Origin: an uncultured Actinomycetota bacterium
Lineage (GTDB): Bacteria > Actinomycetota > Acidimicrobiia > Spongiisociales > UBA4744
Length of the DNA stretch: 64,000 bases
Assembly (NCBI GenBank): GCA_963718995.1
Contig: CAVRAP010000008.1
Location: forward strand, 1,236 to 65,235
Direction of reading: 5' to 3'
Part shown: positions 5,513 to 64,000 of the stretch, piece by piece
Position numbering within the stretch: position 1 is the first letter of the stretch
Layout: each line of letters begins with the position of its first letter
The notes under the pieces: model-generated
Seen by the model: the letters and a program-made list of their open reading frames with translations, nothing else
What the model was told of the DNA's origin: nothing
Databases searched by the model: none
Translations under genes and position numbers: made by a program

Positions 5513-6373
5513 TTAGGCCGAAAAGAACTGCCGATAGATCCGCTCGAGATCGTCGAGGGAGCTGAAATCGATGACCAGCTTGCCGCGATCGTTGGCGTAC
5601 TTGATCTTCACCCTGGTCGACAACTGGTTGCGAAGTCGCTGCTCGAGCTCGACGATGGCGGCCGGCCGCGCCGGGGTCGCCCGCCGGCCGCTGTGATCCT
5701 CGGACACTGCCTGGTTGCGCGATCGGACCGCATCCTCTACTTGACGTACAGACCAACCTTCTTCGACTGCCCGATCGGCGATGTGCTCTGCAAATTTACG
5801 GTCCTCGAGACCAAGCAACGCCCGTGCATGTCCCGCCGACAGCTCACCCCGTTCCAGCTTCCCCTGGATGGCAGCCGGAAGTTGCAGGAGACGGAGAGAG
5901 TTGGTGATCGCCGACCGACTCTTCCCAACCCGGTTGCCCACCTCTTCGTGGGTAAGCCCGAAATCTTCTAACAACTCCTGGTAGGCAGTGGCTTCCTCGA
6001 GAGCGCTGAGATCCTCCCGCTGGAGGTTTTCCACCAGAGCCTCGGTAAGAAGCGACCGATCGTCGCTCTCCCTGATAATGGCAGGGATTTCCGTGAGACC
6101 GACCTTCCTGGCAGCTCTCCACCGTCGTTCGCCGGCAACCAGCGTGTATGAACCCTCTTCCGCTTCGCGAACGATGATGGGCTGCAAAACCCCGACCTCT
6201 ACGATCGACGCAGCCAATGAAGCGAGGGCCTCTTCGTCGAACATGGACCGGGGCTGATGGGGGTTTGCCGAGACACGGTCGATCGGAATAACCGCAAAGC
6301 CGAGGTGGTTCTCCTCGCCTTTCGGGATGAGCGCCTCGAGTCCTCGTCCAAGTCCACTCCTACGCGTTGCCAT
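5513..6373 (-). CDS. parB: chromosome partitioning protein ParB
   Basis: GLGRGLEALI N-terminus, ParB box II (GERRWRAA), HTH; SD GGAGG 9 nt upstream of the ATG. Confidence 0.9.
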   Translation of the reverse strand: MATRRSGLGRGLEALIPKGEENHLGFAVIPIDRVSANPHQPRSMFDEEALASLAASIVEVGVLQPIIVREAEEGSYTLVAGERRWRAARKVGLTEIPAIIRESDDRSLLTEALVENLQREDLSALEEATAYQELLEDFGLTHEEVGNRVGKSRSAITNSLRLLQLPAAIQGKLERGELSAGHARALLGLEDRKFAEHIADRAVEEGWSVRQVEDAVRSRNQAVSEDHSGRRATPARPAAIVELEQRLRNQLSTRVKIKYANDRGKLVIDFSSLDDLERIYRQFFSA

Positions 6374-41663: not shown

Positions 41664-41686
41664 AGTTCTCAGTTCTCAGTTCTCAG
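41664..41686. repeat. heptamer tandem array (AGTTCTC)x3, equal to (CTGAGAA)x3 on the tRNA strand, 3' of tRNA-Ser(CGA)
   Basis: Three perfect 7-nt units; part of a ~120-nt element paralogous to the one after tRNA-Ser(GGA). Confidence 0.6.
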
Positions 41687-41788
41687 TCTGATTACTGAAA
41701 GTGAGGGGCTATCAGGCCCCGAGCGACTGACGGCTGAAAGCGGCCCGTCGGAGCGGGCCGCGAACTGAGGTCGGCCGAAGGCCGGCGT

Positions 41789-43752: not shown

Positions 43753-43858
43753 CGACGGGTCGGCCGTTGGCCGGCCCGAGTGCGCAGAGCGGCTAAGCCG
43801 ATCTGCTGTCAGTTGTCAGTCCGCTCGGGGCCGAGTGCCCCTCGCTTCAGTCGTCAGA

Positions 43859-43882
43859 CTGATAACTGATAACTGATAACTG
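43859..43882. repeat. heptamer tandem array (CTGATAA)x3 between tRNA-Ser(GGA) and tRNA-Ser(TGA)
   Basis: Three perfect 7-nt units, preceded by hairpins (GGCCG-ttgg-CCGGCC, GGGGCCgagtGCCCC); paralog of the element at 41664. Confidence 0.6.
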
Positions 43883-52412: not shown

Positions 52413-52530
52413 GCCGCTCCTTCGGATAGATCGAAGAGGAGCGAAAGCGCCACCTCATCGATCAGGCCTTGGCACCGTGATCCCGGGGATCGGTTGCCGC
52501 GGTTTCGTCGGGCCTGTCCCTCCACCGCTC
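52413..52530 (-). promoter_or_regulatory. SAM-I (S-box) riboswitch in the metH leader, with an SD-sequestering expression platform
   Basis: Minus strand: CUCAUCUUGAGCGGUGGAGGGACAGGCCCGACGAAACCGCGGCAACC...ACGGUGCCAAGGCCUGAUCGAUGAGG matches S-box P1-P4 conserved positions; downstream GCUCCU...GGAGCG hairpin occludes the SD before the ATG at 52412. Confidence 0.7.
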
Positions 52531-52640
52531 AAGATGAGTTCGCAGAAGCATACCCTCGGTCGATCGATGGTCAACATGCGGGGTTTTCGTTTACTCCGGG
52601 GTCGACTACCTTTAGCGAGCAAACCCCTCGTGGGGATTGT

Positions 52641-52715
52641 GCGCCCGTAGCTCAATTTGGATAGAGCGTCTGACTACGGATCAGGAGGTTGGGGGTTCGA
52701 GTCCCTCCGGGCGTG
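52641..52715 (+). tRNA. tRNA-Arg (anticodon ACG)
   Basis: GCGCCCGTAGCTCAATTTGGATAGAGCGTCTGACTACGGATCAGGAGGTTGGGGGTTCGAGTCCCTCCGGGCGTG; anticodon loop CTACGGA. Confidence 0.9.
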
Positions 52716-52912
52716 CGCCGTTCGCTGCGCTCACGAACCGAGTTCGGCTTCGCCGAACATCGCCTTGCGTGGGCTTTGCGTTGTCAATCTCCGATGGCGC
52801 TGCGGGGTTTCGGTCATCTCCCGCCGAGTTCCAGGCTGCCTGGCCGGCGACCCGGGCAGGTGGCTGGTCATCTCGCACAGGACGTACCCATCCCCGGTCC
52901 TACACTCCTGTG

Positions 52913-54160
52913 ATGCCCAATTCGTCCGCTGTTCCTGCGCGCTCCTTTGTGGGGTGGCGGATTCTTGCCTTGGCTGTTCTGACCGCCGCGTTGACCGGTC
53001 CGGGTCAGACCATCGGGGTCTCCGTCTTCGTTGACTCCTTCATCCAGGATCTCGACTTGCAGAGATCAGCGGTGGCCGCTGCCTATCTCATCGGAACACT
53101 GGCCGCTGCGCTTGCCTTGCCGACAGTGGGGCGCCGCATCGACTCGCTCGGCGTGCGCCGGGGCATGACGATCATTGGATCTGCCTTTGTATTGGCTCTC
53201 ATCCTGATGTCACGGGTGTCAGGGTTCGTAACCCTGACGGCCGGATTTGTGCTGATCCGCATGCTGGGTCAGGGTTCGTTGTCGTTGGTCTCGACCGTGG
53301 CGGTGACCCTGTGGTTCGAGAGGCACCGCGGTCTAGTACTCGGAGTCCTGGCCACCGGATCAGGCATGCTCATGACCTTGGTCCCGATCGGTTCGAACGC
53401 TCTCATCGACTCCATCGGTTGGCGATCCGCCTGGTTGGTGCTTGCCGGTGTCGTGGCGCTGACCGTGGTTCCCATCGGATGGTTCGGCATGATCGACAGG
53501 CCCTCCGACCGAGGCCTCGCTCCCTACGGCGTGAAATCGTCGGACTCGACCGAAAGGCGCAGCGTTCGCCGGTCGTTCACTCGGCCCGAAGCCGTGCGGA
53601 CTGCCCGATTCTGGATCCTCGTTGCGGGTTCTACGTCGGCTGGCATGCTCATCACCGCCCTGAACTTCCACCAGATCTCGCTGCTCGGGGACGCCGGCCT
53701 CACGACCGCCGAGGCGGCCGCTATGTTTCTCCCCCAGTTCGTCGGTACGGCCATGGCCGGGATCGCCTTCGGGTGGATCAGCGACAGGCTGACCGGTCGC
53801 ACGCTCATTCCGTTAGTCATGGCGGTTCTCGCGATCACCTTGCTCCTGGCGGGGACACTGACCGATGGCCCAATCGTCCTGGTCTATGCCCTCTTGCTCG
53901 GCGCCACGGGCGGAGCCTCCCGGAGTGTTGGGAGCACATTGATGCCCCGCTGGTTCGGCGTCGACCACATCGGGTCGATCACGGGATTGGCAACGCTGGT
54001 CTCGGTGGCCGGCACGGCGGTCGGCCCTGTCGCGTACTCGCTGGCCCGGGACGTGACCGGTACCTACACCACGGTTTCTCTGGTCATGGTTTCTGTGCCG
54101 CTGCTGGTCGCCTTGGCAGCCATCGCCGCCGGGCAAAGGATGACGGCCGGAGCCGGGTAG
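52913..54160 (+). CDS. MFS transporter (12 TM)
   Basis: Twelve predicted helices, MFS motif A-like GRRIDSLGVRRG; ATG at 52913; the longer track ORF overlaps the tRNA and is rejected. Confidence 0.8.
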   Translation: MPNSSAVPARSFVGWRILALAVLTAALTGPGQTIGVSVFVDSFIQDLDLQRSAVAAAYLIGTLAAALALPTVGRRIDSLGVRRGMTIIGSAFVLALILMSRVSGFVTLTAGFVLIRMLGQGSLSLVSTVAVTLWFERHRGLVLGVLATGSGMLMTLVPIGSNALIDSIGWRSAWLVLAGVVALTVVPIGWFGMIDRPSDRGLAPYGVKSSDSTERRSVRRSFTRPEAVRTARFWILVAGSTSAGMLITALNFHQISLLGDAGLTTAEAAAMFLPQFVGTAMAGIAFGWISDRLTGRTLIPLVMAVLAITLLLAGTLTDGPIVLVYALLLGATGGASRSVGSTLMPRWFGVDHIGSITGLATLVSVAGTAVGPVAYSLARDVTGTYTTVSLVMVSVPLLVALAAIAAGQRMTAGAG

Positions 54161-54327
54161 CGAGTCTGTTACCCATGCTGCACCAGTGGTTGGTGGAGCG
54201 GGTGGTCACGTGGGTGGCCCGCTGGTCAGGGGTCGACAGGCCGTTTGAGTGAGGAACTCGGTCGAAACGGAATCCCCCTCGCTGGTGTGCCCGCCGCAGC
54301 CGTCAAGGTCCGTGTACGGATGTTTCC

Positions 54328-55735
54328 TTAGGGTTGCCGGAAAGGGACGGAGTCGGCGATCGGCAAAGAGATCCGGACTGTTGCGCCCCCGCCGGGCGTG
54401 CCGGTGATGGCGACGTCACCCTGGTGCGATGAGACAACCTCGCGGACGATGGCCAGTCCGAGGCCGGCGCCTCCCTTGGTTCGGTCCCGGCCCCGATCCG
54501 GTCGTGCGAATCGGTCGAACACCAACTCGCGTTCGGATTCGGCTATCCCCGGTCCATGGTCGGCGACGGTGATGTGAGCGTGGGCATCGGTGCGATGCGC
54601 CTCCAGCTCAATCGGGGTAGACGCTCCGCCGTAGGCGACGGCGTTGGTGATGAGGTTTTCGATGGCCTGCCGCAACCAGACGGGATCGGCGTCGACCATG
54701 ATTGATCCGTCGGTGTCGACACGGATGTCGCAACCGGTGGAGATACGCATATCCTCGGCGATGTCCTTCACGAGGGCGCCGACATCCAGGCGCTCACGGC
54801 CGGAGCCGATCTCTCGATCGAGGCGGGCGAGCGCCAGCAGATCTTCAATCAACCGCCCGGCGCGATGGCTGGCTTCATTGATACGTTCCATCGCCCGATC
54901 GAGCTTCGGGCCCGGCTCCACCCCGCCTTCGGCGTAGAGCTCGGCGTATCCGGTGATGGCTGCAATCGGCGTCCGCAGCTCGTGGGAGGCATCGTCGGCA
55001 AAGCGGCGGAGGCGCTCGGCCTCGCGCAGGCGGTCCCGGTCGGCGCTCTCGATACGGGCGAGCATGTGGTCGAGTGCCGTCGCCAGTCTTCCGAGCTCGG
55101 TACTTGACTGGACCAGGTCGGCCCTTTTCGTGAGGTCACCCTCGGCGATGGCGCCGGCGGTGTCGATCATGTCGTCGACCGGTCGGAATCCTCTTCTGAG
55201 CAGCAACCACGCGACCGTGATTCCCGCCAGCGCCGCCATCAAGCTGACGGCCAGCGAGATCAAGACCGTTTGGCGGGCCGCCAAGTCCACTGAGTCCAGG
55301 GACCGGGCGAGCAGCTCATATCCATCGGGGCTCTCCCGGACCAAGGCGCGCACCGATCCCGAACCATCGATTGTCGCCCAGCGTGACGAAGGTTCCGGCG
55401 CTTCCACCCAGGTCTGCCTCGGTCAGATTGCTCACGTCCGGCAGGGGTTCAGGCTCGTCGGCGTACCCGGCGGGCTGTTCGAAGACGACCTCGCCATTCT
55501 GGTTGAAGCGAATCAGAGCGAAAGGTTGGAAGGGCTCGTCGCCGGGGGCGGGCACGGCCGGACTGGGACCGGGACCGGGTCGGGTGGAGAAGGCCAGCAG
55601 GTCTTCGTCCACCCGATCGATGAGAACCCGTCTGGTCGTCAGCGAAACGGCGGCGGCGATAGAGGCGCTGACAATGAGGATGATGAGCCCGACCACGATG
55701 GTCAGGCGACGCCGCAGCGTCCACGGCCGGCTCAT
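54328..55735 (-). CDS. two-component sensor histidine kinase (TM sensor, HAMP, HisKA, HATPase); one apparent frameshift between 55316 and 55407
   Basis: N-terminal TM plus sensor in ORF 55316..55756, remainder in ORF 54328..55407 (H-box DDASHELRTPIAAITGYAEL; N, G1, G2 boxes); ATGA overlap with the response regulator stop. Confidence 0.8.
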
Positions 55736-56424
55736 GGACCGGAGGAGCGCAGGCAATAGCCGAACCCGCGCACGGTGTGGATGAGCTTGGGACGGCCTTC
55801 GTCGACCTTCTTGCGGAGCTGTGACACCGCGGTCTCGATCACCGAGTCGCTGTACTCGTACCCCCAGACGGCTTCCAGGATCTGCGCCCGGGACAGGACT
55901 TGTTCGGCGTTCGCCAGGAGGTAGCGGAGCAAACGGTATTCGACCGGCGAAAGGCTGATTTCGTCGTCTCCCCGCGACACGCGATGCTGCGCATCGTTCA
56001 GGACCAGATCGGCACAGATCAGCTCGATCGTTGGCCGCCGGATTCCGCCGCTACGCCGCAGGAGGGCCTCCACCCGCAACCGCAGTTCCTCCAGCCTGAA
56101 CGGCTTCGTGAGGTAGTCATCGCCGCCGGCCTCAAACCCGGCTCGCAGGTCCTCGATGTTGGATCGGGCGGTGAGGAACAGCACCGGCAGGTCCGGGTCG
56201 GTGCTGCGCAAGCTCCTGGCCACCTGAAAGCCGTCGGGTTCTGGCATGTTGACGTCCAGAATCACCAGGTCCGGCCGCTGAGTTCGCACGGTGTTGAGGG
56301 CTGCGAGGCCGTCGGTCGCTACCACGATGTCGTACCCGGCGAAGCTCAGCGCGTCGCTGACCATGTCGAGCAGCATCTGCTCGTCGTCCACAACGAGGAT
56401 CTGTGCCTTGGCAGCATCGGTCAT
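55732..56424 (-). CDS. OmpR/PhoB-family response regulator
   Basis: Receiver domain (ILVVDDE, phospho-acceptor D in LVILDVNMP, K in YLTKPF) plus winged-helix trans_reg_C. Confidence 0.85.
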   Translation of the reverse strand: MTDAAKAQILVVDDEQMLLDMVSDALSFAGYDIVVATDGLAALNTVRTQRPDLVILDVNMPEPDGFQVARSLRSTDPDLPVLFLTARSNIEDLRAGFEAGGDDYLTKPFRLEELRLRVEALLRRSGGIRRPTIELICADLVLNDAQHRVSRGDDEISLSPVEYRLLRYLLANAEQVLSRAQILEAVWGYEYSDSVIETAVSQLRKKVDEGRPKLIHTVRGFGYCLRSSGP

Positions 56425-56499
56425 CGCCACAACTCTAGGGTCGCCGGCTGCGTCCCCTTCATCGTTCGGTAGCGATCGCGATCGGCCAAACATCCCGGC

Positions 56500-57945
56500 C
56501 TACCTCTCGACCACGGTCTCGAGGAACGCCATCCGATCAGCGACCCATTGACGTTTCGCCGCTGCGGCTCTTTCGAGCTCGGTATCGGTCACGAACTGCC
56601 GGTCGGCATTGCTTGTAACCAGTAGCCCCGAGTACTCGTCGATGAGATCGGCGACGCCATCACCCGCAAACAGGATCTCGTAGAGCTCGGCGTAGCGCTG
56701 CTCGTAGGCAGCCAGGAACGAGTCGGTGGCCAGGAACCGATCGACCAGGGGGTTGTTGTAGTCGAAGGTCACGTCACCACCACCGACTCCGGGCTCATTG
56801 GCGATCCCGTCGAGGGGTGGGCCACCTCCTCCCGGCCCTGCCGGCCTCTCGCCGCCCGCACCATCTGCACCGCCGGCGCCGGATCCGGTGAGGTTGCTCC
56901 AATCTGGCAGCAACACGGTGCTGGGTTCGGTCGAGGCCATCCAGAAGCCGCCGAAGCTCTCGTTGAGGTCCCAGGCCAACACCGTGGACCGGTCATCACC
57001 GGCGTCGTACCACAGGTAGTAGTTGTTGCCGTTCCCGGGCATCGAATCGACGCTGACCAGCAGGTTGTTGACGGCGACGTAGTTCACGAACGATTCGATG
57101 TCGAGCCAGTCCTCCAGCTCGGCCTCGAACTCCTCGTCGGTGGAGGTGTCGACGAACTCGAGGAAGTCGATCAACGGCTCCAGATCCGCCTCATTCGTGG
57201 CGGTCTCCTGGGTGAAGGCGCCTTCATAGGCGGTCGGGTCGTGGCCGAGATAGGTGAACGAGTCCCCCGATTGGGCCTTGTAGAGCACTCCGTCATCGTC
57301 GAAGAGCCGTTCGACGTAGCCGTTGTCGAGGAGTTCGACCACCACCCGCAGGGTCTCGGCTTCACCGTTGATGGAGAGCCCGGTGTAGCTCGTCCCGGGG
57401 AACGGCAGTCCGGCGATCTCGAGGACCTCGGCGGTCACCATCTCCTCGAGAATCAGTTCATCTCCCCGGGGTCCCTCGGTGCGGAGGGCCAGTTCCGAGA
57501 ACCCCTGATAGGTGACGCCCGAGGTGTACTCGTCCAGCTTCACCAGAAACGGAATGTCGTCGGGGTCGGCACCGCCCTGCAGCGCCGTGCGGAGCGTCGA
57601 GTTTCCCTTGATGCGCACTCCGACGTCTTCGATGGTGACGCCGTCGATGGTGATGTCGGCGAGGAAATACTCCTTCTCACCGGTCTGTGTGTAGATGGTG
57701 ATGGCGGCCTCTAGATCGGACTGATCGAAGTCGAGCGCGATCGTGTGCACCACGGAGTCGTCGAATAGGTCAACAACATTGGTGTAGTCGACGCCAACGC
57801 TGGTGGATGACCCCGCCTCGTTGTCGCCTCCTGTACCTACATAGGCAATGATGCGCGTCTGGCCGCCCACCAGTGCCAGGGTCACCGCCAGCGCCACCAT
57901 GCCCAGCGGGATCTTCCAATGTCTGCGCCACCTTGTGCTCATCAT
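56500..57945 (-). CDS. CotH-family protein (atypical secreted kinase fold) with signal peptide and Gly-rich low-complexity insert
   Basis: Signal peptide MMSTRWRRHWKIPLGMVALAVTLALVGG; CotH motifs NNYYLWYD and WDLNESFGG. Confidence 0.75.
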   Translation of the reverse strand: MMSTRWRRHWKIPLGMVALAVTLALVGGQTRIIAYVGTGGDNEAGSSTSVGVDYTNVVDLFDDSVVHTIALDFDQSDLEAAITIYTQTGEKEYFLADITIDGVTIEDVGVRIKGNSTLRTALQGGADPDDIPFLVKLDEYTSGVTYQGFSELALRTEGPRGDELILEEMVTAEVLEIAGLPFPGTSYTGLSINGEAETLRVVVELLDNGYVERLFDDDGVLYKAQSGDSFTYLGHDPTAYEGAFTQETATNEADLEPLIDFLEFVDTSTDEEFEAELEDWLDIESFVNYVAVNNLLVSVDSMPGNGNNYYLWYDAGDDRSTVLAWDLNESFGGFWMASTEPSTVLLPDWSNLTGSGAGGADGAGGERPAGPGGGGPPLDGIANEPGVGGGDVTFDYNNPLVDRFLATDSFLAAYEQRYAELYEILFAGDGVADLIDEYSGLLVTSNADRQFVTDTELERAAAAKRQWVADRMAFLETVVER

Positions 57946-57951
57946 GTTCTC

Positions 57952-58635
57952 CTACAGATCAGAGCTGCCGTATCCCGTGAGCAGCGTCACCTTCTGGTTC
58001 TCGTTGAGGCGCTTGATCTCAGCCAGGAAGGCTTGCCGGTTGGTCGATGGTTTCAGGGCGATGGCGTACACCACCTCGGTCAACATCCCGCCGCGGACCG
58101 AATCGACGCTCACCAATTCGGCCCGTTCGGTGTTCCTGGTCAGGAGGTCGTCGAGCACCGTCTCGAAGGGGATGTCATTGGTGACCTGCACCTTCAGCAT
58201 CTGGGAGACGCTGGTGCGGTCATACCAGTTGAACCTGCTCATCAGCATCACAACCATCGAGATGACGGCGGTGGCGATGATGGCCAGCAGGTAGAAGCGG
58301 GTGCCGGCGGCCATGCCGATGGCCATGGCAAAGAACACGAATCCGACATCGCGGGTCTCTTTGATCGCATTGCGGAACCGGATGATGGAAAGCGCACCGA
58401 CCAGCGAAAAGGCCCGGGCGATGTTCGAGCCAACTACCAGCATGATGACACTGACGATCATTCCCATCAGTACCAGGGTCTGCACGTAGCTCTTCGTGTA
58501 CGACGCTCCCTCGTGGGTGCGCATGTACACCCACCCGACGATGGCCGTGAGCACAAAGCTCAGGACCATGCTGATCACTACATCCGCCACCGTGAAGGTG
58601 CTGGTCAGGTCCTCGAACAGAAATAGCTCATCCAT
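57952..58635 (-). CDS. DUF4956-family integral membrane protein
   Basis: Three or four TM helices and the conserved LVGALSIIRFRNAIKETRDVGFVFFAMAIGMAAG segment. Confidence 0.75.
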   Translation of the reverse strand: MDELFLFEDLTSTFTVADVVISMVLSFVLTAIVGWVYMRTHEGASYTKSYVQTLVLMGMIVSVIMLVVGSNIARAFSLVGALSIIRFRNAIKETRDVGFVFFAMAIGMAAGTRFYLLAIIATAVISMVVMLMSRFNWYDRTSVSQMLKVQVTNDIPFETVLDDLLTRNTERAELVSVDSVRGGMLTEVVYAIALKPSTNRQAFLAEIKRLNENQKVTLLTGYGSSDL

Positions 58636-59433
58636 GGGTTCTTACCTTTCGTAGGTTCAGTCGTTGGTCGTCAAAGAAGAAAATCGAGCGGGGGGTCAGT
58701 TCGGCCGCTTCGAGGCTCTGGCAATACTTCGAGATCCGGATCAGCTCGCAGTCGTGGCGGGCAACCAGCTCGGTCAGCCAGAAGGGGATGCGTTCATTGA
58801 CCTTGACCTCCATGACCTCCCACGAAGGGTTGATGGCCGGCAGGCCCGGCCCGGGAGAGGTCAGGTCGAGGTCCCGGGAGCGGTACCGGATGTCTTTGTC
58901 GAAGGTGACCCGGAGGCCTGGATCGGGCTCCCGGCCCACGTACGCCTCTCTCTCGTAGAGCGTGATCACCGCCCGCCGTAAGTCGTAGTACAGGGTCATG
59001 GAGGCAATCTCGTCATAGGTGGCCGTGTCCCTCGGGTCATGTGGGGGGACGATCCCGGAACCACACAGCGCCAGCGCCTCGGCGAGTGGCGCGACGATGC
59101 GCCGTTTCTGGGTCACCCGATTGACCCGCTGCTTGATCTCGGCGAACACCATGGTCGATGGCTCCGGAGCCGGGTCGTAGGAGCGGATTCTGAGCTTCCG
59201 ACGGAACTTGATCCCGTCGAGTTTTTCCCAATAGAACCGGTGGTCTTCGGTGTCGTAGTACAACGATGCCAACGGATACGAACCGGTCGGTCCTGCGTGC
59301 GGGTCGAGGTCGACGTAGTGCACCAAGTCATCCCGAAAGGCGTTCGCCTGGTCCGACGTCAACAGATATTTGAGCTCGAACCGGTTGAACGACCGCACCG
59401 CGCTCGTCGGGTTGGGGTTGATGCTCAGGTGCG
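58590..59433. repeat. copy A of a >=844-bp near-identical direct repeat (partner at 63157..64000)
   Basis: Covers the first 15 codons of the DUF4956 gene plus most of the VTC gene; one nucleotide difference seen (58682 A versus 63249 G, synonymous). Confidence 0.85.
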
Positions 59434-59476
59434 GTTGGGGTTTCTGGCGCGTCGTCATGCCACCACTGTCCACCAC
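58628..59476 (-). CDS. VTC-domain (CYTH-like triphosphate tunnel, polyphosphate-polymerase-domain) protein
   Basis: Hallmark FNRFELKYLL start, YYDT, FAEIKQR, EVKVNE motifs of PF09359; start could be ATG 59476, ATG 59458 or GTG 59431. Confidence 0.8.
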   Translation of the reverse strand: MVDSGGMTTRQKPQPHLSINPNPTSAVRSFNRFELKYLLTSDQANAFRDDLVHYVDLDPHAGPTGSYPLASLYYDTEDHRFYWEKLDGIKFRRKLRIRSYDPAPEPSTMVFAEIKQRVNRVTQKRRIVAPLAEALALCGSGIVPPHDPRDTATYDEIASMTLYYDLRRAVITLYEREAYVGREPDPGLRVTFDKDIRYRSRDLDLTSPGPGLPAINPSWEVMEVKVNERIPFWLTELVARHDCELIRISKYCQSLEAAELTPRSIFFFDDQRLNLRKVRTHG

Positions 59477-59611
59477 GCAACTGGTGGCCCCCCAAGCGCA
59501 AGCTCAGCGTTCCCTCACGATCGTGAATCGAGCGCGGTATCCAAAAGGAACGCCACGGTCGGTTCAACCTGGGAAGCGCCCCCGCCGGGAGCCAAGTTGG
59601 GAGCCATTCGC

Positions 59612-59700
59612 AGTGGACCTGTGTGGACGGCTGTGGACGCCGGTGAAATCGAAAGCCTTTCATTTCGGGCTGTGTGGACGTCTGTGGACGTCTGTGGACG
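59612..59700. promoter_or_regulatory. two clusters of three 10-bp-phased direct repeats (TGTGGACG; CGTCCACAGA on the operon strand) upstream of the VTC operon
   Basis: Units at 59612 (variant AGTGGACC), 59622, 59632 and at 59673, 59683, 59693; phasing typical of OmpR/PhoB-family tandem half-sites; also resembles the DnaA box (CGTCCACA versus TTGTCCACA). Confidence 0.5.
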
Positions 59701-59715
59701 CTGCTTGGAGATCTG

Positions 59716-59755
59716 CGGATCAGGAGGTTGGGGGTTCGAGTCCCTCCGGGCGTGC
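59716..59755 (+). repeat. 40-bp exact copy of the tRNA-Arg 3' half (anticodon loop to acceptor stem); attR-like
   Basis: cggatcaggaggttgggggttcgagtccctccgggcgtgc identical to 52677-52716. Confidence 0.8.
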
Positions 59756-60059
59756 TAGTGAAACCCCTGCGAGAGCGGGGGTTTCGTCGCGAGCAGGGGT
59801 TGGCTCCCGGAAGCAGGTGGACCTTGGGAGCCTTTCTCCATCTGAGGCGGCTTTCGCTTCGAGGTTGCGGCTTGGTGAAGCGTGATATATGCGGATGCGT
59901 GAAGACGCTATTCCCGCCCGGGATCGGCCGTTTCGCCGAGCGACCGGACAATCTTGCGAGCCTCCTCGCCCCGAAGGGATTGAGACACGATCTTGGGCGT
60001 AATGTTGTTCGTGTTCAGGTTTTGGCCGCATTCGCTCCCTGTATAAGTGGAGGATCAGA

Positions 60060-60557
60060 GTGGTCGAGGCGCTCAACCGGGAGATCAACGTTTCGAGAGG
60101 GTCGGAACTCGATGGTTTCGACCGGCTGTATAGAGAACAGGCATCTCGCTTGTGGCGGGCGCTTACCGCGTACACGGGCAGTCGCGACGTGGCACAGGAT
60201 GCGGTCGCTGAGGCTTTCGCGCAAGCGATTGCGCGCGGCGGAGAGATTCATTCACCGCTGCAGTGGGTGTGGAAGTCCGCATATCGAATCGCAGCTGGTG
60301 AGCTGAAGCGACGTGGAGCATTCACCGAGTTGGTGACCGATCATCCGACGACGGCAGACGAACCAGCGTCGGAGGTTCGAGCGGCGTTGATGAAGCTGTC
60401 GCCGATGCAGCGCTCGGCGGTGGTGTTGCACTACTACGCGGGTTATCCGGCTGCCGAGATCGCCCGAATCACCGGCTCGACCGCCGCTGCAGTGTGGGTG
60501 CACTTGAGTCGGGGACGGCGCCACATGGCCCAGTTGCTGGAGGTAGACGATGACTGA
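60060..60557 (+). CDS. ECF sigma factor
   Basis: Region 2 (DVAQDAVAEAFAQA) and region 4 (LSPMQRSAVVLHYYAGYPAAEIARITGSTAAAVWVHLSRGRRHM); GTG start with SD GGAGGA. Confidence 0.8.
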   Translation: MVEALNREINVSRGSELDGFDRLYREQASRLWRALTAYTGSRDVAQDAVAEAFAQAIARGGEIHSPLQWVWKSAYRIAAGELKRRGAFTELVTDHPTTADEPASEVRAALMKLSPMQRSAVVLHYYAGYPAAEIARITGSTAAAVWVHLSRGRRHMAQLLEVDDD

Positions 60558-62061
60558 CTTGCGGGAACGCCTCAGCGAATTGGATCGGCTCGATGCACCT
60601 GATATGCGGGTGAGCATCGATCGGCGTGTCGGCGAACTCCAATCTGCCACCCGTGTGTCACTTGTCCATTCAGCAAGTCCGGTGTGGCGGGGTCCGCTGA
60701 TCGCATTGGCGACGGCTGTTGCGGCCATCCTGGTGGTTGCCGCGTCGATGCTGGTGTTGCGGACGGAACAGCCGGACATGGTCGACGAACCGGCTCCCAC
60801 CTCTCCGACAACGATCGAGGCGCCCGAGACGAGCTCTCCGTCGGCGAATCAGGCTCCTCCGAGATCCCCGGCTTATTACGGTGCAGCCCTCATCGAGTGG
60901 ATGTATGGCGTATGTGACGTTGCGGTTGCGCCGGATGGTCTGGTGTACGCGGCGGCCCCGGCGGGGATCGGCTCAATGGACGCAGCGGGCGAGTGGACCC
61001 TGATCGACATTGCCGGACTCCCGCAGGGCAGACCTCTGGACAACGGGTGGCCGGCTCCGAGGATCGGAAACGTCGCCATCGGCCCCGACGGCGCTCTGTG
61101 GGCGGGCGGCACCTCCTGGTCCACCGTCGACGATGAGGAGTTCGGGGGAGTTATCGCCGAGCCGTTGGGCTCCATGGCGCCGGCGGCCCGGTTCAAGACG
61201 TGGGCGGCACGCTACGACTGCGGTCGGGAACCATGCTCGTGGACGGTGTTCACTACGGACGTGGCTCCCGGAACGGACTTCGACATCGGCGATATGGCGG
61301 TGTCGAGCGACGGAACCGTCTACCTCACCACCGGTGACAACCTGTTGCTCATTCTCGACGGGACCGAATGGGAATCCCACACCGTCCCGGGGCTCCCGAC
61401 CGGCTTCGGTAGCGGCGTGTCGCCGTGGTCGAGTTCGCTGGCGATCGATGCCGATGGTGTCGTGTGGGTGGGCACCAACGCCAATGACGATCCGGGGTGG
61501 GGGATCCCCAGCAGCGACTTTCGCGAAGGGCGCGGTCTGTTCGCTTTCGACGGTACCGATTTCACTCGATACACCACCGAGGACGGGCTTCCCAGCGATC
61601 GCGCCTTCCAGGTGTCGGTCGATGCAGATGGAACTATCTGGGTCGCCACCGACGGCCCTGATCACGTGAATCGGATCGTCGGGGAATATGGGTTTGTATG
61701 GTACGAGGGCCCTAACACGAGCCTGCCGCCGGAAGCAGCAGCCGGGATCGCCGGCTTCGACGGCACCACCTGGACCCCTTACACGGCCGCCGACGGACTG
61801 CTGTCGAACAACGCCGTACTGGCTGCAAGCCCTGACGGGACCATGTGGGCTCTTCACTCTGCGACAACCCCCTACGGGTACTCCCACTTCGACGGCACCG
61901 CATGGACCGCCTATCCGGCCGAACTCCCGGCTGGTGCGTTCCGGACCTTCCGGGCAGAAGTTGCTCCCGACGGGACCCTGTGGACGATCTCAGATCAGGG
62001 TGTGGGTAGCTTCGACGGCATCACCCCAACGATCCACACATCACTGTTTCCCCGCCCGTGA
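60550..62061 (+). CDS. anti-sigma-like membrane protein fused to a two-component-regulator-propeller (Reg_prop) beta-propeller domain
   Basis: 8-nt overlap with the ECF sigma; cytoplasmic N-terminus, one TM (LIALATAVAAILVVAASMLVL), Pro/Ser linker, then ~8 repeats of the DG(T/A)(L/V)W...FDG..WT.Y propeller type. Confidence 0.7.
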   Translation: MTDLRERLSELDRLDAPDMRVSIDRRVGELQSATRVSLVHSASPVWRGPLIALATAVAAILVVAASMLVLRTEQPDMVDEPAPTSPTTIEAPETSSPSANQAPPRSPAYYGAALIEWMYGVCDVAVAPDGLVYAAAPAGIGSMDAAGEWTLIDIAGLPQGRPLDNGWPAPRIGNVAIGPDGALWAGGTSWSTVDDEEFGGVIAEPLGSMAPAARFKTWAARYDCGREPCSWTVFTTDVAPGTDFDIGDMAVSSDGTVYLTTGDNLLLILDGTEWESHTVPGLPTGFGSGVSPWSSSLAIDADGVVWVGTNANDDPGWGIPSSDFREGRGLFAFDGTDFTRYTTEDGLPSDRAFQVSVDADGTIWVATDGPDHVNRIVGEYGFVWYEGPNTSLPPEAAAGIAGFDGTTWTPYTAADGLLSNNAVLAASPDGTMWALHSATTPYGYSHFDGTAWTAYPAELPAGAFRTFRAEVAPDGTLWTISDQGVGSFDGITPTIHTSLFPRP

Positions 62062-62086
62062 CAACAAACAGCTAGGAGGTGTGAAC

Positions 62087-62668
62087 GTGCCGGGCCAACT
62101 CCGCACCCCGACCAGGAGATGGATGTCATGGAGGCACTTTGTGAGACATCGTGCGGTTCTTCTACTGCCTGTTCTTACCCTGATTCTTGGAGCGTGTGGC
62201 GCCAGTTCCATCACAGGAGATCGGACCTTCGTCTACGGGACTGGCAACTGCGACTGCAACTTCGCTTCGGCGACCGCCGAGGGTGATACACAGATCCTCA
62301 ATGGAACGTGTGTCTGCATAACTCACCTATCCGACCCGAGAGTCAATGGGTACGAAGAAATCCCTATGACCCTGACCATGTTTCCGGACCAGACCCCGGA
62401 AGTGCACTGGTTCGAGTACAACGACGCAACCCTCACCAGCGAAGAAGCCACATGGGGCAAAGGCGAGGGCTTCGGCAGTGAGTTCTTCGACAAGAGTGGC
62501 GGCTTGCTGACTAGTGGATACGCCAGATACCTCGGTGAAGGTACGTTTGACGGTCTCGTGTACGAGTACTTCTACTCGCAGGCTCCCGCCTTCGCTTCGG
62601 AGGACGACCCCCACGAGGGCTATCGGATCTCTGGATGGATCATGCAGGTCCCGGACGAAAAAAACTGA
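62087..62668 (+). CDS. secreted lipoprotein, Cys-rich N-terminal region (function unknown)
   Basis: Signal peptide with lipobox LILGAC; CDC/C.C motifs; start GTG 62087 or ATG 62123. Confidence 0.55.
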   Translation: MPGQLRTPTRRWMSWRHFVRHRAVLLLPVLTLILGACGASSITGDRTFVYGTGNCDCNFASATAEGDTQILNGTCVCITHLSDPRVNGYEEIPMTLTMFPDQTPEVHWFEYNDATLTSEEATWGKGEGFGSEFFDKSGGLLTSGYARYLGEGTFDGLVYEYFYSQAPAFASEDDPHEGYRISGWIMQVPDEKN

Positions 62669-62804
62669 ACCGCCCCATATCACGGGAATCTCGCACCAAA
62701 AAGAGCATGTCGCCGAGTGTCCCCGAGCGGCACGTCGGCGTGTGCTCGTCTGGGGCCTCATCCGCTCCCGGACATTCGTCACAGCATTACCGAGATGTGG
62801 AATC

Positions 62805-63134
62805 ATGCGCAACGTGATGCAACCTACGCTTCGCGCTACCACGGAGTCCGGGGCCGTCTGGGACGATCCTTCGGAGGATCTGCTCTTCGAACTGCTCTCC
62901 GATGTGGAACAAGGAAGAGAGTTGTTTCTCGTTATTCACCGACTCGGCGCTACCGACATGTACATCCAGGTCTTATTGCAAGACGAATGGACTTACCTCG
63001 TCGAGCACCGTGATGGGGGACCGTCATCGCATTTCGCTGCGACGTCCCACGACAAGCGGACCGTGCACGAGGTCCTCACGACATGGGCCTACCAGCTTCC
63101 CGGTGGACGAGCCTGCTCGGTTGGACGTCCGTGA
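62805..63134 (+). CDS. hypothetical small cytoplasmic protein (109 aa)
   Basis: ORF from an internal ATG; no recognisable domain. Confidence 0.45.
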   Translation: MRNVMQPTLRATTESGAVWDDPSEDLLFELLSDVEQGRELFLVIHRLGATDMYIQVLLQDEWTYLVEHRDGGPSSHFAATSHDKRTVHEVLTTWAYQLPGGRACSVGRP

Positions 63135-63156: not shown

Positions 63157-63204
63157 CCGTGAAGGTGCTGGTCAGGTCCTCGAACAGAAATAGCTCATCC
63201 ATGG
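63157..63204 (-). pseudogene. 15-codon remnant of a DUF4956 gene N-terminus (MDELFLFEDLTSTFT-A-stop) at the boundary of the duplicated segment
   Basis: Identical to codons 1-15 of the gene at 58635, then diverges into a stop. Confidence 0.5.
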
Positions 63205-64000
63205 GTTCTTACCTTTCGTAGGTTCAGTCGTTGGTCGTCAAAGAAGAAGATCGAGCGGGGGGTCAGTTCGGCCGCTTCGAGGCTCTGGCAATACTTCGAG
63301 ATCCGGATCAGCTCGCAGTCGTGGCGGGCAACCAGCTCGGTCAGCCAGAAGGGGATGCGTTCATTGACCTTGACCTCCATGACCTCCCACGAAGGGTTGA
63401 TGGCCGGCAGGCCCGGCCCGGGAGAGGTCAGGTCGAGGTCCCGGGAGCGGTACCGGATGTCTTTGTCGAAGGTGACCCGGAGGCCTGGATCGGGCTCCCG
63501 GCCCACGTACGCCTCTCTCTCGTAGAGCGTGATCACCGCCCGCCGTAAGTCGTAGTACAGGGTCATGGAGGCAATCTCGTCATAGGTGGCCGTGTCCCTC
63601 GGGTCATGTGGGGGGACGATCCCGGAACCACACAGCGCCAGCGCCTCGGCGAGTGGCGCGACGATGCGCCGTTTCTGGGTCACCCGATTGACCCGCTGCT
63701 TGATCTCGGCGAACACCATGGTCGATGGCTCCGGAGCCGGGTCGTAGGAGCGGATTCTGAGCTTCCGACGGAACTTGATCCCGTCGAGTTTTTCCCAATA
63801 GAACCGGTGGTCTTCGGTGTCGTAGTACAACGATGCCAACGGATACGAACCGGTCGGTCCTGCGTGCGGGTCGAGGTCGACGTAGTGCACCAAGTCATCC
63901 CGAAAGGCGTTCGCCTGGTCCGACGTCAACAGATATTTGAGCTCGAACCGGTTGAACGACCGCACCGCGCTCGTCGGGTTGGGGTTGATGCTCAGGTGCG
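63195..64000 (-). CDS. second copy of the VTC-domain protein gene (5' end may run off the window)
   Basis: Protein identical to copy A over 256 aa; GTG at 63965 corresponds to internal Val of copy A; the upstream ATG of copy A would lie at ~64010. Confidence 0.75.
   Translation of the reverse strand, partial: HLSINPNPTSAVRSFNRFELKYLLTSDQANAFRDDLVHYVDLDPHAGPTGSYPLASLYYDTEDHRFYWEKLDGIKFRRKLRIRSYDPAPEPSTMVFAEIKQRVNRVTQKRRIVAPLAEALALCGSGIVPPHDPRDTATYDEIASMTLYYDLRRAVITLYEREAYVGREPDPGLRVTFDKDIRYRSRDLDLTSPGPGLPAINPSWEVMEVKVNERIPFWLTELVARHDCELIRISKYCQSLEAAELTPRSIFFFDDQRLNLRKVRTHG

What the first reader, a model, noticed from the sequence alone, without database searches (positions are those of the whole stretch)
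59612..59700. Two triplets of 10-bp-phased TGTGGACG direct repeats between the att repeat and the VTC operon
On the operon strand the sequence reads CGTCCACAGA CGTCCACAGA CGTCCACACA, then a 33-bp spacer, then GCGTCCACAG CCGTCCACAC AGGTCCACTG. That is six helically phased units in two clusters, 140-260 bp upstream of the VTC start. Phasing of 10-11 bp is the binding grammar of OmpR/PhoB winged-helix regulators, and one is encoded in this same operon, so an autoregulatory operator is the simplest reading. The unit also resembles the actinobacterial DnaA box (TTGTCCACA, with the TCCACA core conserved). The array abuts the tRNA-derived att repeat. Iterons, integrase arm-type sites or a DnaA-titrating locus are therefore alternatives.
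Basis: partly seen in the sequence, partly recalled or inferred. Interest (0 to 1): 0.65.

Follow-up and report, generated by a model that had tools for sequence, protein, structure and literature searches.

The report
Integrase attachment-site arm repeats, not operator
The phased TGTGGACG repeats are real, but they are the conserved "arm" of a mobile-element attachment site next to a tRNA-Arg fragment, found in many related bacteria beside unrelated genes, and are not a control site for the neighbouring polyphosphate (VTC) operon.

Summary
Five exact TGTGGACG plus one degenerate unit lie at 10-bp phase in 59612-59700, 12 nt from a 43-nt copy of the tRNA-Arg(ACG) 3' end.

The interpretation as an autoregulatory OmpR/PhoB operator is not supported. 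Three of five related VTC operons lack the array, and all five share a different conserved leader (59459-59524).

The array belongs to a conserved module: tRNA-Arg fragment, 3 units, spacer, 4 units, then a TGGCTCCCAACTTGGCTCCC pair. I found 67 distinct copies in Acidimicrobiia MAGs and soil metagenomes. In 43 of them the distance from the tRNA junction to the outer pair is exactly 141 nt. Only a GTCC core is conserved at 10-bp phase.

Neighbouring genes vary (Fic, antitoxins, GNAT, APH, regulators). Modules often sit in tandem, bounding 0.8-5.6 kb integrase-less islands. The outer pair recurs on the other arm next to tyrosine integrases (L137, L156, L252) and in a pSAM2-like AICE (L251).

Best reading: the integrase-distal arm of a lambda/AICE-type attachment site. 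The array would be phased binding sites for a recombination accessory protein, or for the integrase itself. The window holds no integrase, so its copy is a relic or acts in trans. DnaA-box and iteron readings are unlikely.

The parts
52641..52716 (+). Complete tRNA-Arg(ACG) gene. Its 3' 43 nt (52674-52716, from the anticodon loop onward) form the left copy of the att direct repeat (attL core).
   Evidence: ARAGORN, Rfam 62 bits, repeat family D8.
52717..59586 (.). Island 1 cargo: MFS transporter (+), then on the minus strand histidine kinase, OmpR-type regulator, CotH, DUF4956 and VTC. No integrase. No P'-type arm site after the tRNA.
   Evidence: Pfam; integrase HMM and phmmer found nothing in the whole window at E<=1; sequence downstream of the tRNA.
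59459..59524 (-). Conserved VTC-operon leader (gaTCgTGAGggAACGCTGAGcTT....TTGG...). It contains an 11-bp-phased TGAG/CTGAG direct repeat (+ strand CTCAG 59503-59507, CTCAC 59514-59518). It is the candidate promoter/operator of the operon and is independent of the array.
   Evidence: Alignment of five VTC leaders, including three loci without the array.
59587..59606 (-). Outer arm pair ('type-2' sites): TGGCTCCCAAC TTGGCTCCC on the minus strand, 11-bp period. Proposed integrase arm-type sites. It marks the inner boundary of the conserved module.
   Evidence: Present in all modules. At least 120 metagenome stretches carry it, mostly at a fixed distance from tRNA 3' fragments. The same motif lies on the other arm next to integrases.
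59612..59648 (-). Array B, four 10-bp-phased units. On the minus strand: TTTCACC (degenerate, 59642-59648), CGTCCACA (59632-59639), CGTCCACA (59622-59629), GGTCCACT (59612-59619).
   Evidence: Family alignment columns 80-83, 90-93, 100-103 and 110-113 conserve (G)TCC.
59649..59672 (.). Central spacer with an imperfect palindrome (GAAATGAAAGGCTTTCGATTTC). Its length is conserved but its pairing is not.
   Evidence: No covariation: 57.6% of cells paired against 57.1% in shuffles.
59673..59700 (-). Array A, three exact CGTCCACA(ga/ca) units at a 10-bp period, next to the core.
   Evidence: Family columns 29-32, 39-42 and 49-52 conserve GTCC.
59701..59712 (-). Junction GATCTCCAAGCAG (minus strand), conserved in most modules. 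It probably holds the element-side core-type integrase half-site. It also contains a further (G/C)TCC unit in approximate phase.
   Evidence: Alignment A1 columns 15-24.
59713..59755 (+). Displaced 3' part of tRNA-Arg (attR core). Identity to the gene begins in the anticodon loop; A>G at the first anticodon base.
   Evidence: Repeat D8, 98% over 43 nt; weak Rfam tRNA hit; independent assembly L001 starts inside it.
59760..59785 (+). GC-rich hairpin (GAAACCCC-N9-GGGGGTTTC) following the tRNA fragment. It resembles a tRNA terminator, and equivalents follow tRNA copies in related loci.
   Evidence: Sequence; homologous hairpins in L005, L026, L067, L120.
59811..59839 (+). P'-type arm site of the next (tandem) island: AGCAGGTGGACCTTGGGAGCCTTTCTCC. 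It matches AGCAGGGCGACCTTTGGGAGCCATTCGCC found about 60-75 nt after tRNA-Arg copies elsewhere.
63157..64000 (-). Second copy of the first 46 nt of DUF4956 plus VTC, 843/844 identical to 58590-59433. It is predicted, but not shown, to be followed by a second array and tRNA fragment beyond the window.
   Evidence: Tandem modules are common in relatives.

Best explanation
The array is the central part of the integrase-distal arm (P arm, now attR) of a lambda/AICE-type attachment site. The site belongs to a family of elements that integrate into the anticodon loop of tRNA-Arg(ACG).

On the strand where the tRNA is reverse-complemented, the order is: tRNA 3' part (crossover core); GATCTCCAAG; three GTCC-core units; a ~30-nt spacer; four GTCC-core units; two TGGCTCCCA sites. 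All of this sits in a fixed 141-nt frame.

Proposed mechanism (inferred by analogy, not shown). The outer TGGCTCCCA pair, which also occurs on the other arm beside the integrase gene, binds the arm-binding domain of a tyrosine integrase. The seven to eight 10-bp-phased GTCC units between it and the core bind several copies of a recombination accessory protein head to tail on one face of the helix. An excisionase/RDF-type winged-helix protein is the leading candidate; further integrase protomers are less likely. This would wrap the arm so that arm-bound integrase reaches the core.

In this window no integrase is present. The copy is therefore either a relic left by past integration or a site usable only in trans. 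The VTC operon is cargo of the island, not the target of the array.
For: Shown:
1. The array is 12 nt from a 43-nt direct repeat of the tRNA-Arg 3' end, which starts in the anticodon loop.
2. The same module abuts tRNA-Arg fragments in Acidimicrobiia MAGs (L016, L026 twice, L048, L052, L067, L120), in L005 and in dozens of metagenome contigs. There are 67 distinct copies, and 43 are exactly 141 nt from junction to outer pair.
3. In 27 modules ascertained only by the outer pair, the 28 GTCC columns carry 1.77 bits against 0.82 for the other 68 columns. Pairwise identity is 0.90 against 0.52, and the information autocorrelation peaks at lag 10.
4. Neighbouring genes differ between copies: VTC, Fic, HigA-like, RHH, Rrf2, MarR, hydrolase, APH, GNAT.
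5. Modules occur in tandem at one tRNA-Arg, as expected from repeated site-specific integration.
6. The same geometry (T-loop to outer pair 133-134 nt in 40 cases) holds for fragments of other tRNAs, with different array cores.
7. The TGGCTCCCA pair or single site lies on the other arm, 40-110 nt from complete tRNAs, directly beside tyrosine integrase genes. L137 and L156. L252, a 2.4-kb element on tRNA-Arg(ACG) with integrase, both arm pairs and a GTCC array in the 141-nt frame. L251, where a pair adjoins the tRNA-Arg flanking a RepSA/FtsK/GntR AICE.

Established knowledge used:
- In lambda, core- and arm-type sites are separated by sites for bending proteins, including three phased Xis sites (PMC4880445).
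- Winged-helix RDFs and BldC oligomerise head to tail about one DNA turn apart (PMC11963761).
- AICEs carry attP directly downstream of int and can integrate in tandem into an Arg-tRNA gene, leaving a 44-bp att between them (PMC2440964).
Against: - No binding or recombination was tested.
- No integrase lies in the window, and no P'-type site follows the intact tRNA gene, so island 1 cannot excise by itself.
- Most related islands also lack an integrase, and several linked integrase genes are truncated or frameshifted (L240, L183, most homologues). Much of the family may be decayed.
- Which protein binds the GTCC units is unknown, and no excisionase gene was tied to a GTCC-type element. The HTH_17 genes seen in L249 and L252 belong to neighbouring elements of other families.
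- The first integrase I linked to the module (L162) turned out to belong to a different tandem element with its own arm repeats.
- Metagenome modules were found through the outer pair, so the conservation of that pair is by ascertainment.
Confidence: 0.75

Rival explanations
1. The GTCC units are themselves the integrase arm-type sites, bound by the N-terminal arm-binding domain (as with lambda P'1-P'3 or the L5 arm sites). The TGGCTCCCA pair would then serve another protein.
For: Arrays of adjacent direct arm-type sites are known. ICEMlSymR7A attP has five arm-type motifs (PMC11963761), and lambda has three adjacent P' sites (PMC4880445). The array core changes with the tRNA targeted, that is, with the integrase subfamily. 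Common units (GTCCGTAG, GTCCATAG) resemble the core ATCCGTAG.
Against: The GTCC array is found on one arm only, whereas TGGCTCCCA is on both arms beside int. L137 and L156 target different tRNAs, both carry the TGGCTCCCA pair, and their N-termini look similar on inspection (sequence). Other integrase families on the same tRNA each carry their own 11-bp-phased pair in the equivalent position.
Confidence: 0.2
2. Autoregulatory operator: the OmpR/PhoB-type regulator encoded at 55732-56493 binds the phased units and controls the VTC operon.
For: Direct repeats at a 10-bp period fit winged-helix response regulators. The regulator is encoded in the adjacent operon. The array lies upstream of the operon.
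Against: Three of five related operons with orthologous regulators lack the array. The module occurs with unrelated cargo and no regulator. The conserved leader with its own 11-bp direct repeat is the shared cis element. The array is 136-242 nt from the start codon and is continuous with the att core.
Confidence: 0.04
3. DnaA-box cluster: host DnaA binds the units (GTCCACA is the core of the actinobacterial TTGTCCACA box), either titrating DnaA or acting as an architectural factor or origin for the excised element.
For: Five units in the window read GTCCACA. A 10-bp-phased GTCCACA triple occurs in a genuine dnaA-dnaN oriC (L015), so such spacing is compatible with DnaA.
Against: Across the family only 18% of units are GTCCACA and 37% GTCCAC, while TCC is kept in 90%. 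Sister subfamilies have GTCGC/GTGGC-type arrays in the same frame. There is no AT-rich unwinding element and there are no replication genes nearby.
Confidence: 0.05
4. Iterons of a plasmid-like replicon carried by the island.
For: Clustered direct repeats in two blocks resemble iterons. AICEs do replicate after excision (PMC2440964).
Against: No rep gene lies in the island or in most related islands. The array has a fixed position relative to the tRNA core rather than to any gene. There is no AT-rich region.
Confidence: 0.02

Closest known systems
Bacteriophage lambda attP/attR P arm (P1, P2 arm-type sites; X1, X1.5, X2 Xis sites; IHF and Fis sites)
   Same: A core at the crossover, distal integrase arm-type sites, and phased sites for accessory bending proteins in between. 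Arm-type sites occur on both arms. The function depends on fixed geometry (PMC4880445).
   Different: Here there are seven to eight 10-bp-phased units with only a 4-6-nt conserved core, spanning about 95 bp. No IHF-type site was recognised. The core is the tRNA-Arg anticodon arm. The binding proteins are unknown.
Actinomycete integrative and conjugative elements (pSAM2-type AICEs) and their remnants in tRNA genes, including the tandem AICESav3728/3708 in an Arg-tRNA gene
   Same: Tyrosine integrase with attP directly downstream of int. Integration into the 3' part of a tRNA, tandem integration leaving a ~44-bp att copy, and frequent remnants (PMC2440964). L251 shows a family integrase inside a RepSA/FtsK/GntR element.
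   Different: The window's island has no integration, replication or transfer genes. The host is an Acidimicrobiia-like MAG rather than an actinomycete. The arm repeats of this family have not, to my knowledge, been described.
Mycobacteriophage L5 attP/attR (arm-type sites P1-P7, Xis sites X1-X4) - from my own knowledge, not checked here
   Same: An actinobacterial tRNA-integrating system in which several tandem Xis sites lie between the core and a pair of arm-type sites in attR.
   Different: Different sequences and a different tRNA (Gly). There are four Xis sites rather than seven to eight units. The phage encodes its own Int and Xis.
Cis-mobilisable elements (CIMEs) and site-specific tandem accretion - concept from my own knowledge; a review (PMC5704250) appeared among the results but was not read
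   Same: Islands bounded by att sites that encode no integrase and sit in tandem with integrase-bearing elements at the same site.
   Different: Trans-mobilisation is not shown here. The islands are often single-gene sized (0.8-1.7 kb).
OmpR/PhoB-family operators (for example pho boxes or the OmpR F1-F3 sites)
   Same: Direct repeats with a 10-11-bp period.
   Different: The array is not conserved with the regulator or the operon. It is conserved with a tRNA fragment instead.
DnaA-box clusters (oriC, datA-like loci)
   Same: The GTCCACA core in this copy. A similar phased triple exists in the oriC of L015.
   Different: The box positions are not conserved across the family, and there is no replication context.

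Membership tests
Complex (heterobivalent tyrosine-integrase) attachment site arm | Lies directly next to a recombination core that is a direct repeat of the target (tRNA 3' part) bounding an island | tested here: met
   43-nt repeat at 52674-52716 and 59713-59755; the array ends 12 nt from it.
Complex (heterobivalent tyrosine-integrase) attachment site arm | The arm sequence travels with the att core, not with particular cargo genes | tested here: met
   67 distinct modules with varied neighbours. Three VTC operons lack the module.
Complex (heterobivalent tyrosine-integrase) attachment site arm | Conserved spacing or phasing between the core and the arm sites | tested here: met
   Exactly 141 nt in 43 of 67 modules; T-loop to outer pair 133-134 nt in 40 cases across other tRNAs; 10-nt periodicity of conservation.
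Complex (heterobivalent tyrosine-integrase) attachment site arm | Repeated arm-type motif present on both arms | tested here: met
   TGGCTCCCA is on the P arm and 40-110 nt from complete tRNAs in L120, L137, L156, L166, L174, L200, L241, L242, L251 and L252. In the window it occurs only at the start of the next island (~59824-59832), not after the intact tRNA.
Complex (heterobivalent tyrosine-integrase) attachment site arm | Cognate tyrosine integrase encoded beside the att site | tested here: not met
   None in the 64-kb window. Met only in relatives: L137 and L156 (other tRNAs), L252 (same tRNA, GTCC array) and L251.
Complex (heterobivalent tyrosine-integrase) attachment site arm | Integrase or excisionase binds the repeats; excision yields attB and attP | not testable with these tools
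   Needs EMSA or footprinting, and junction reads or PCR.
OmpR/PhoB-type operator of the VTC operon | Direct repeats at a 10-11-bp period | tested here: met
OmpR/PhoB-type operator of the VTC operon | Conserved upstream of orthologous operons that encode the regulator | tested here: not met
   Absent in L002/L003, L004 and L006; present only where the tRNA fragment is present (window, L005).
OmpR/PhoB-type operator of the VTC operon | Regulator binds the sites | not testable with these tools
   Needs EMSA or DAP-seq.
DnaA-box cluster | Units match the TTGTCCACA box, and the box positions are conserved among homologous copies | tested here: not met
   7 of 9 positions match in the window's units, but family-wide GTCCACA is 18% and TCC 90%.
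DnaA-box cluster | Association with an origin or replication genes | tested here: not met
   Neighbours are the VTC operon and a sigma/anti-sigma pair. Contrast the true oriC in L015.
Iteron-type replication origin | Adjacent rep gene and AT-rich unwinding region | tested here: not met
   Pfam of island genes and cassette cargo; no AT-rich stretch.
Integron attC-type cassette site | Imperfect inverted repeats that fold into a hairpin recombination site | tested here: not met
   The units are direct repeats, and the central palindrome shows no covariation.

The most novel reading that the evidence does not exclude
tRNA-Arg(ACG) in Acidimicrobiia and related Actinomycetota may anchor an integron-like cassette array built from lambda-type sites. 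Many integrase-less islands, often a single gene of 0.8-1.7 kb (Fic/Doc, antitoxins, GNAT, APH, small regulators), each keep a complete, geometry-conserved att site: a P' site, the tRNA core, an eight-unit phased array and an arm pair. They stack in tandem. The proposal is that they are captured, excised and reshuffled in trans by a family integrase encoded elsewhere. On this reading the window's VTC island(s) would be such cassettes, and the phased array would be the element that keeps them recombination-competent.
Probability: 0.3. Interest if true: 0.65.

Novelty: new member of a known kind. Interest (0 to 1): 0.4.

Why it matters
For annotation, this corrects a tempting misreading. A striking phased repeat upstream of a two-component-regulated polyphosphate operon is not that operon's operator. 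It marks the operon as cargo of an island at a tRNA-Arg hot spot.

It also defines a sequence signature: tRNA 3' fragment, seven to eight GTCC-core units at a 10-bp phase, and a TGGCTCCCA pair at a fixed 141 nt. This signature can be used to delimit islands and tandem cassettes in Acidimicrobiia and other soil Actinomycetota, where mobile elements are poorly charted.

The rigid geometry and the subfamily-specific array cores give a defined substrate for working out how AICE-type integrases assemble their complexes without IHF. If the integrase-less mini-islands prove to be mobilised in trans, the locus would be a gene-cassette system distinct from integrons.

Tried and rejected
1. Sequence beyond 64 kb. 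Exact-protein look-ups for the VTC protein (two starts) and for P0001 found nothing on record. The neighbouring 503-aa protein gave only a 3.1-kb unitig. The second array could therefore not be checked.
2. Central hairpin. It looked compensatory in a two-sequence comparison, but 32 sequences show no covariation, so it was rejected.
3. The genome-wide pattern GTCCAC-N4-GTCCAC-N4-GTCCAC is not specific. Only hits that share the whole module were used.
4. A viral-contig scan with the outer pair gave only an unrelated AT-rich phage tandem repeat.
5. blastn against phages and plasmids matched the tRNA-Arg part only (corynephage beta attP, many Mycobacterium and Rhodococcus phages) and never the array.
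6. I first took the L162 integrase as the module's integrase. This was withdrawn. It belongs to a separate tandem element bounded by its own GATGTATGTCGAATGTATG arm pairs and an internal tRNA fragment at 6313-6357. L249 and L250 (same integrase family) did not reach their far ends.
7. The L240 integrase is a truncated, frameshifted remnant, and most of its homologues are 150-270 aa fragments.
8. A Nonomuraea homologue of the L137 integrase sits near tRNA-Ile without the motif pair, which was uninformative.
9. Promoter and terminator scans of 59300-60200 found nothing. Rfam found only tRNA and a SAM riboswitch.
Full report
**1. The observation**

The + strand of 59612-59700 reads AGTGGACC TG TGTGGACG GC TGTGGACG, then 33 nt, then three exact TGTGGACG(TC) units. 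Exact TGTGGACG occurs 9 times in the 64-kb window against 3.05 +/- 1.75 expected, and no shuffle reached 9. Five of the nine lie within 79 nt, and the other four are scattered at about chance level. TRF reports 59673-59700 as 2.8 perfect copies of a 10-nt unit.

The minus strand carries VTC (58628-59458/59476), DUF4956, CotH, an OmpR-type response regulator (55732-56493) and a histidine kinase. An MFS gene lies on the + strand. A complete tRNA-Arg(ACG) is at 52641-52716. Its last 43 nt, starting in the anticodon loop, recur at 59713-59755 with one mismatch, 12 nt from the array.

**2. The array is not conserved with the VTC operon**

Close homologues of the VTC protein led to four further VTC loci, each with at least the start of the same operon (L006 is a short contig).

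- L002/L003 (an Acidimicrobiia MAG), L004 and L006 have no array and no tRNA fragment upstream. L006 has the closest VTC, at 88% identity.
- L005 (83% identity) has the array, and there it again abuts a tRNA-Arg fragment.

All five operons share a ~70-nt leader immediately upstream of the start codon (window 59459-59524). It contains a TGAG...CTGAG direct repeat with an 11-bp period. That leader is the natural candidate for the operon's own promoter and operator. The operator reading of the array therefore fails its most direct comparative test.

**3. The array is part of a conserved module tied to a tRNA-Arg fragment**

A genome-collection scan for three phased GTCCAC units was unspecific as a pattern. 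Even so, it recovered homologous modules in Acidimicrobiia and Microthrixaceae MAGs: L016, L026 (two copies), L048, L052, L067 and L120.

On the strand where the tRNA is reverse-complemented, each module reads:
- a hairpin;
- the tRNA-Arg 3' part;
- GATCTCCAAG;
- three units;
- a spacer;
- two to four units;
- GAA-TGGCTCCCAAC-TTGGCTCCC.

A metagenome scan with that outer pair alone returned at least 120 stretches. About 40% of these carry the tRNA-Arg(ACG) fragment with GTCC-type arrays. Pooling everything gave 67 distinct modules. In 43 of them the distance from CCTCCTGATCCGTAG to the end of the outer pair is exactly 141 nt.

An ungapped alignment of 32 modules (A1) shows GTCC at columns 29-32, 39-42 and 49-52. 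It shows (G)TCC at columns 80-83, 90-93, 100-103 and 110-113. I then took the 27 modules ascertained only through the outer pair:
- the 28 core columns carry 1.77 bits, against 0.82 for the other 68 columns;
- pairwise identity is 0.90 at core columns, against 0.52 elsewhere;
- the autocorrelation of information content peaks at lag 10.

After GTCC only a purine and then a pyrimidine are preferred. GTCCACA makes up 18% of units, whereas TCC is kept in 90%. The window's six visible units are units 1-3 and 5-7. Unit 4 is degenerate here (TTTCACC, 59642-59648). A further (G/C)TCC sits in the conserved junction next to the crossover. The palindrome in the spacer is not a conserved structure (57.6% of cells paired, against 57.1% in shuffles).

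**4. Neighbours and arrangement**

Genes next to the module differ from copy to copy. They include VTC (window, L005), Fic (L120, L067), a dehydrogenase, TetR plus a glycosyltransferase (L026) and DUF1326 (L048, L162).

Where a contig holds the intact tRNA-Arg and one or more modules, successive att copies are 0.83-5.6 kb apart. L155 carries three modules, L226 at least two and several other contigs two. The best ORFs in these intervals are Fic/Doc, HTH_3, RHH, Rrf2, MarR, an alpha/beta-hydrolase, APH and GNAT. None is an integrase.

Downstream of complete tRNA-Arg genes or fragments, many loci carry a hairpin. About 60-75 nt further on comes AGCAGGGCGACC-TTTGGGAGCCATTCGCC, which is one or two copies of the outer-pair motif in the same orientation. 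The window has the matching AGCAGGTGGACCTTGGGAGCCTTTCTCC just after its tRNA fragment and hairpin (59811-59839). It has nothing of the kind after the intact tRNA.

The window therefore reads as follows:
- tRNA-Arg;
- island 1 (MFS, two-component system, CotH, DUF4956, VTC), ending in a P arm;
- a tRNA fragment;
- island 2, which starts with a P'-type site, carries a sigma/anti-sigma pair, and ends in a near-identical copy of VTC (63157-64000; one mismatch).

That copy presumably leads into a second P arm beyond the window. An independent assembly (L001) matches 59733-62885 exactly and breaks inside the tRNA fragment, as expected for a true repeat.

**5. Link to integrases**

The same outer pair lies at a fixed distance (T-loop to pair 133-134 nt in 40 cases) from 3' fragments of other tRNAs, which I read by eye as Ala-GGC, Pro-TGG, Arg-CCT and Val-CAC. 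The arrays in between have different cores there, such as GTCGC, GTTGC and GTGGC. The architecture is thus shared by a superfamily that has diversified its targets.

- In L156 (tRNA-Arg-CCT) and L137 (tRNA-Ala-GGC), the pair lies between the complete tRNA and the start of a tyrosine integrase gene (Pfam).
- In L242 the pair follows tRNA-Ala-TGC.
- In L183 and L240 the motif lies within the 3' end of remnant integrase genes that converge on the tRNA.
- L252 is the clearest case. It is a 2.4-kb element on tRNA-Arg(ACG) bounded by a ~62-nt direct repeat. It has a P arm in the 141-nt frame (GTCCGCG, GTCCAGG, GTCCGTG ... GTCCACA, GTCCGGG), a GNAT gene, and a Phage_integrase gene. A second TGGCTCCC pair lies 11 nt after the integrase stop codon.
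- In L251 a homologous integrase is the last gene of a GntR-FtsK/SpoIIIE-RepSA element, which is a pSAM2-type AICE layout. A TGGCTCCC pair adjoins the flanking tRNA-Arg.

Other integrase families that use the same tRNA carry their own 11-bp-phased pairs in the equivalent position:
- GATGTATGTCGAATGTATG on both arms of the L162 element, the same in L249, and ATGTATCAG twice in L250, a concerted change;
- TTGCTAAC twice in L193.

These parallels support reading the outer pair as an integrase arm-type site. No integrase-like ORF exists anywhere in the window.

**6. Mechanism**

What is shown is the anatomy and its conservation. What follows is inference from lambda-type systems.

- In lambda, core and arm-type sites are separated by sites for bending proteins. 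Three phased Xis protomers bend the P arm so that arm-bound Int reaches the core (PMC4880445).
- Winged-helix RDFs and BldC oligomerise head to tail about one DNA turn apart (PMC11963761).
- Mycobacteriophage L5 has tandem Xis sites between the core and an arm-site pair (my own knowledge, not checked here).

By position (between the core and the outer pair), restriction to one arm, 10-bp phasing and a short conserved core, the GTCC array is best read as a filament-type binding array for an accessory recombination protein. An excisionase/RDF is the leading candidate. Integrase protomers are the main alternative, because common units (GTCCGTAG) resemble the core ATCCGTAG.

AICEs have attP directly downstream of int. 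They are known to integrate in tandem into an Arg-tRNA gene, leaving a 44-bp att between the two elements (PMC2440964). That matches the 43-nt repeat and the tandem layout seen here.

**7. Rivals**

- Regulator operator: disfavoured by sections 2-4.
- DnaA boxes: the window's units do contain the GTCCACA core. A 10-bp-phased GTCCACA triple sits in a genuine dnaA-dnaN oriC (L015), so binding is physically conceivable. But the box positions are not conserved in the family, and sister subfamilies use other cores in the same frame.
- Iterons: there is no rep gene and no AT-rich region.
- Known phages and plasmids share only the tRNA-Arg part (for example corynephage beta attP), never the array.

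**8. Status in this genome, and novelty**

Island 1 has no integrase and no P' site. At best the array can act in trans, perhaps together with island 2. It may equally be a fossil.

The class of feature, a complex att-site arm of an AICE or phage-type element and its remnants at a tRNA hot spot, is well known. This particular family, with its rigid 141-nt frame and seven to eight phased units, appears not to have been described. I rate it a new member of a known kind, of moderate interest.

The less ordinary aspect is the abundance of tiny integrase-less islands that keep complete, well-conserved att sites and stack in tandem. That suggests, but does not show, a trans-mobilised cassette system.

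Noticed in passing
window 59459-59524 (minus strand): A ~70-nt leader directly upstream of the VTC start is conserved in all five VTC operons examined, with an 11-bp-phased TGAG...CTGAG direct repeat and, in some loci, a GCTGAGC/GCTCAGC inverted repeat. It is a likely promoter/operator, or a 5'-UTR element, of the polyphosphate operon.
   Followed up: partly
window 58590-59433 and 63157-64000: A near-identical duplication (one mismatch, at 58682) covers the first 46 nt of DUF4956 plus the whole VTC gene and runs off the window. The left boundary lies inside a gene, so it is not a site-specific end. It could be recombination between tandem islands, a 4567-bp tandem duplication or an assembly artefact.
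   Followed up: partly
window 52452-52540 (minus strand): A SAM riboswitch (77 bits, above the Rfam gathering score) lies just upstream of the tRNA-Arg gene.
   Followed up: no
window 41664-41687 and 43858-43882: Perfect 7-nt tandem repeats (AGTTCTC x3.4 and ACTGATA x3.6) lie beside tRNA-Ser genes in the tRNA cluster. The cluster order (Leu-CAG, four Ser, Arg-ACG) is shared with L184, L200, L249 and L250.
   Followed up: no
L162 746-770 and 6176-6200; L249 ~9990; L250 ~9965; L193 ~2620: Other integrase families that use the same tRNA-Arg(ACG) carry their own 11-bp-phased arm pairs. GATGTATGTCGAATGTATG is on both arms in L162, and both copies change in concert to ATGTATCAG in L250. L193 has TTGCTAAC twice. 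The L249 element also carries a TrwC relaxase and an HTH_17 excisionase-like gene.
   Followed up: partly
L015 ~3900 (Actinoallomurus sp., dnaA-dnaN intergenic region): A genuine oriC contains GTCCACAGCG GTCCACAGAC GTCCACAGGA at a 10-bp phase, among seven TCCACA/TGTGGA boxes within 400 nt.
   Followed up: partly
L007, L008, L040, L092, L100, L107, L114, L119 and other Lentisphaerae MAG contigs: A dispersed ~150-nt repeat is packed with GTCCAC(T)AA-type units, in several copies per contig. It is unrelated to the module studied here.
   Followed up: no
L139, L182, L231 (junction spacing 156 nt); L155, L241 (259 nt): These are 'empty' att-att units: a tRNA-Arg junction followed by a P arm and another tRNA fragment with no cargo between. 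They could be deletion or excision scars.
   Followed up: no
proteins P0241-P0360: Most database homologues of the integrase type linked to the TGGCTCCCA pair are only 150-270 aa (catalytic-domain fragments). They include entries from Actinoallomurus, Micromonospora and Nonomuraea, which suggests that truncated remnants are widespread. Whether they lie next to tRNA genes was not checked.
   Followed up: no
window 59039-59758 (+ strand ORF): A 239-aa ORF reads through the array and the tRNA fragment on the strand opposite VTC. It is most likely spurious. In L240 and L183, however, real integrase 3' ends do encode the TGGCTCCCA motif.
   Followed up: partly
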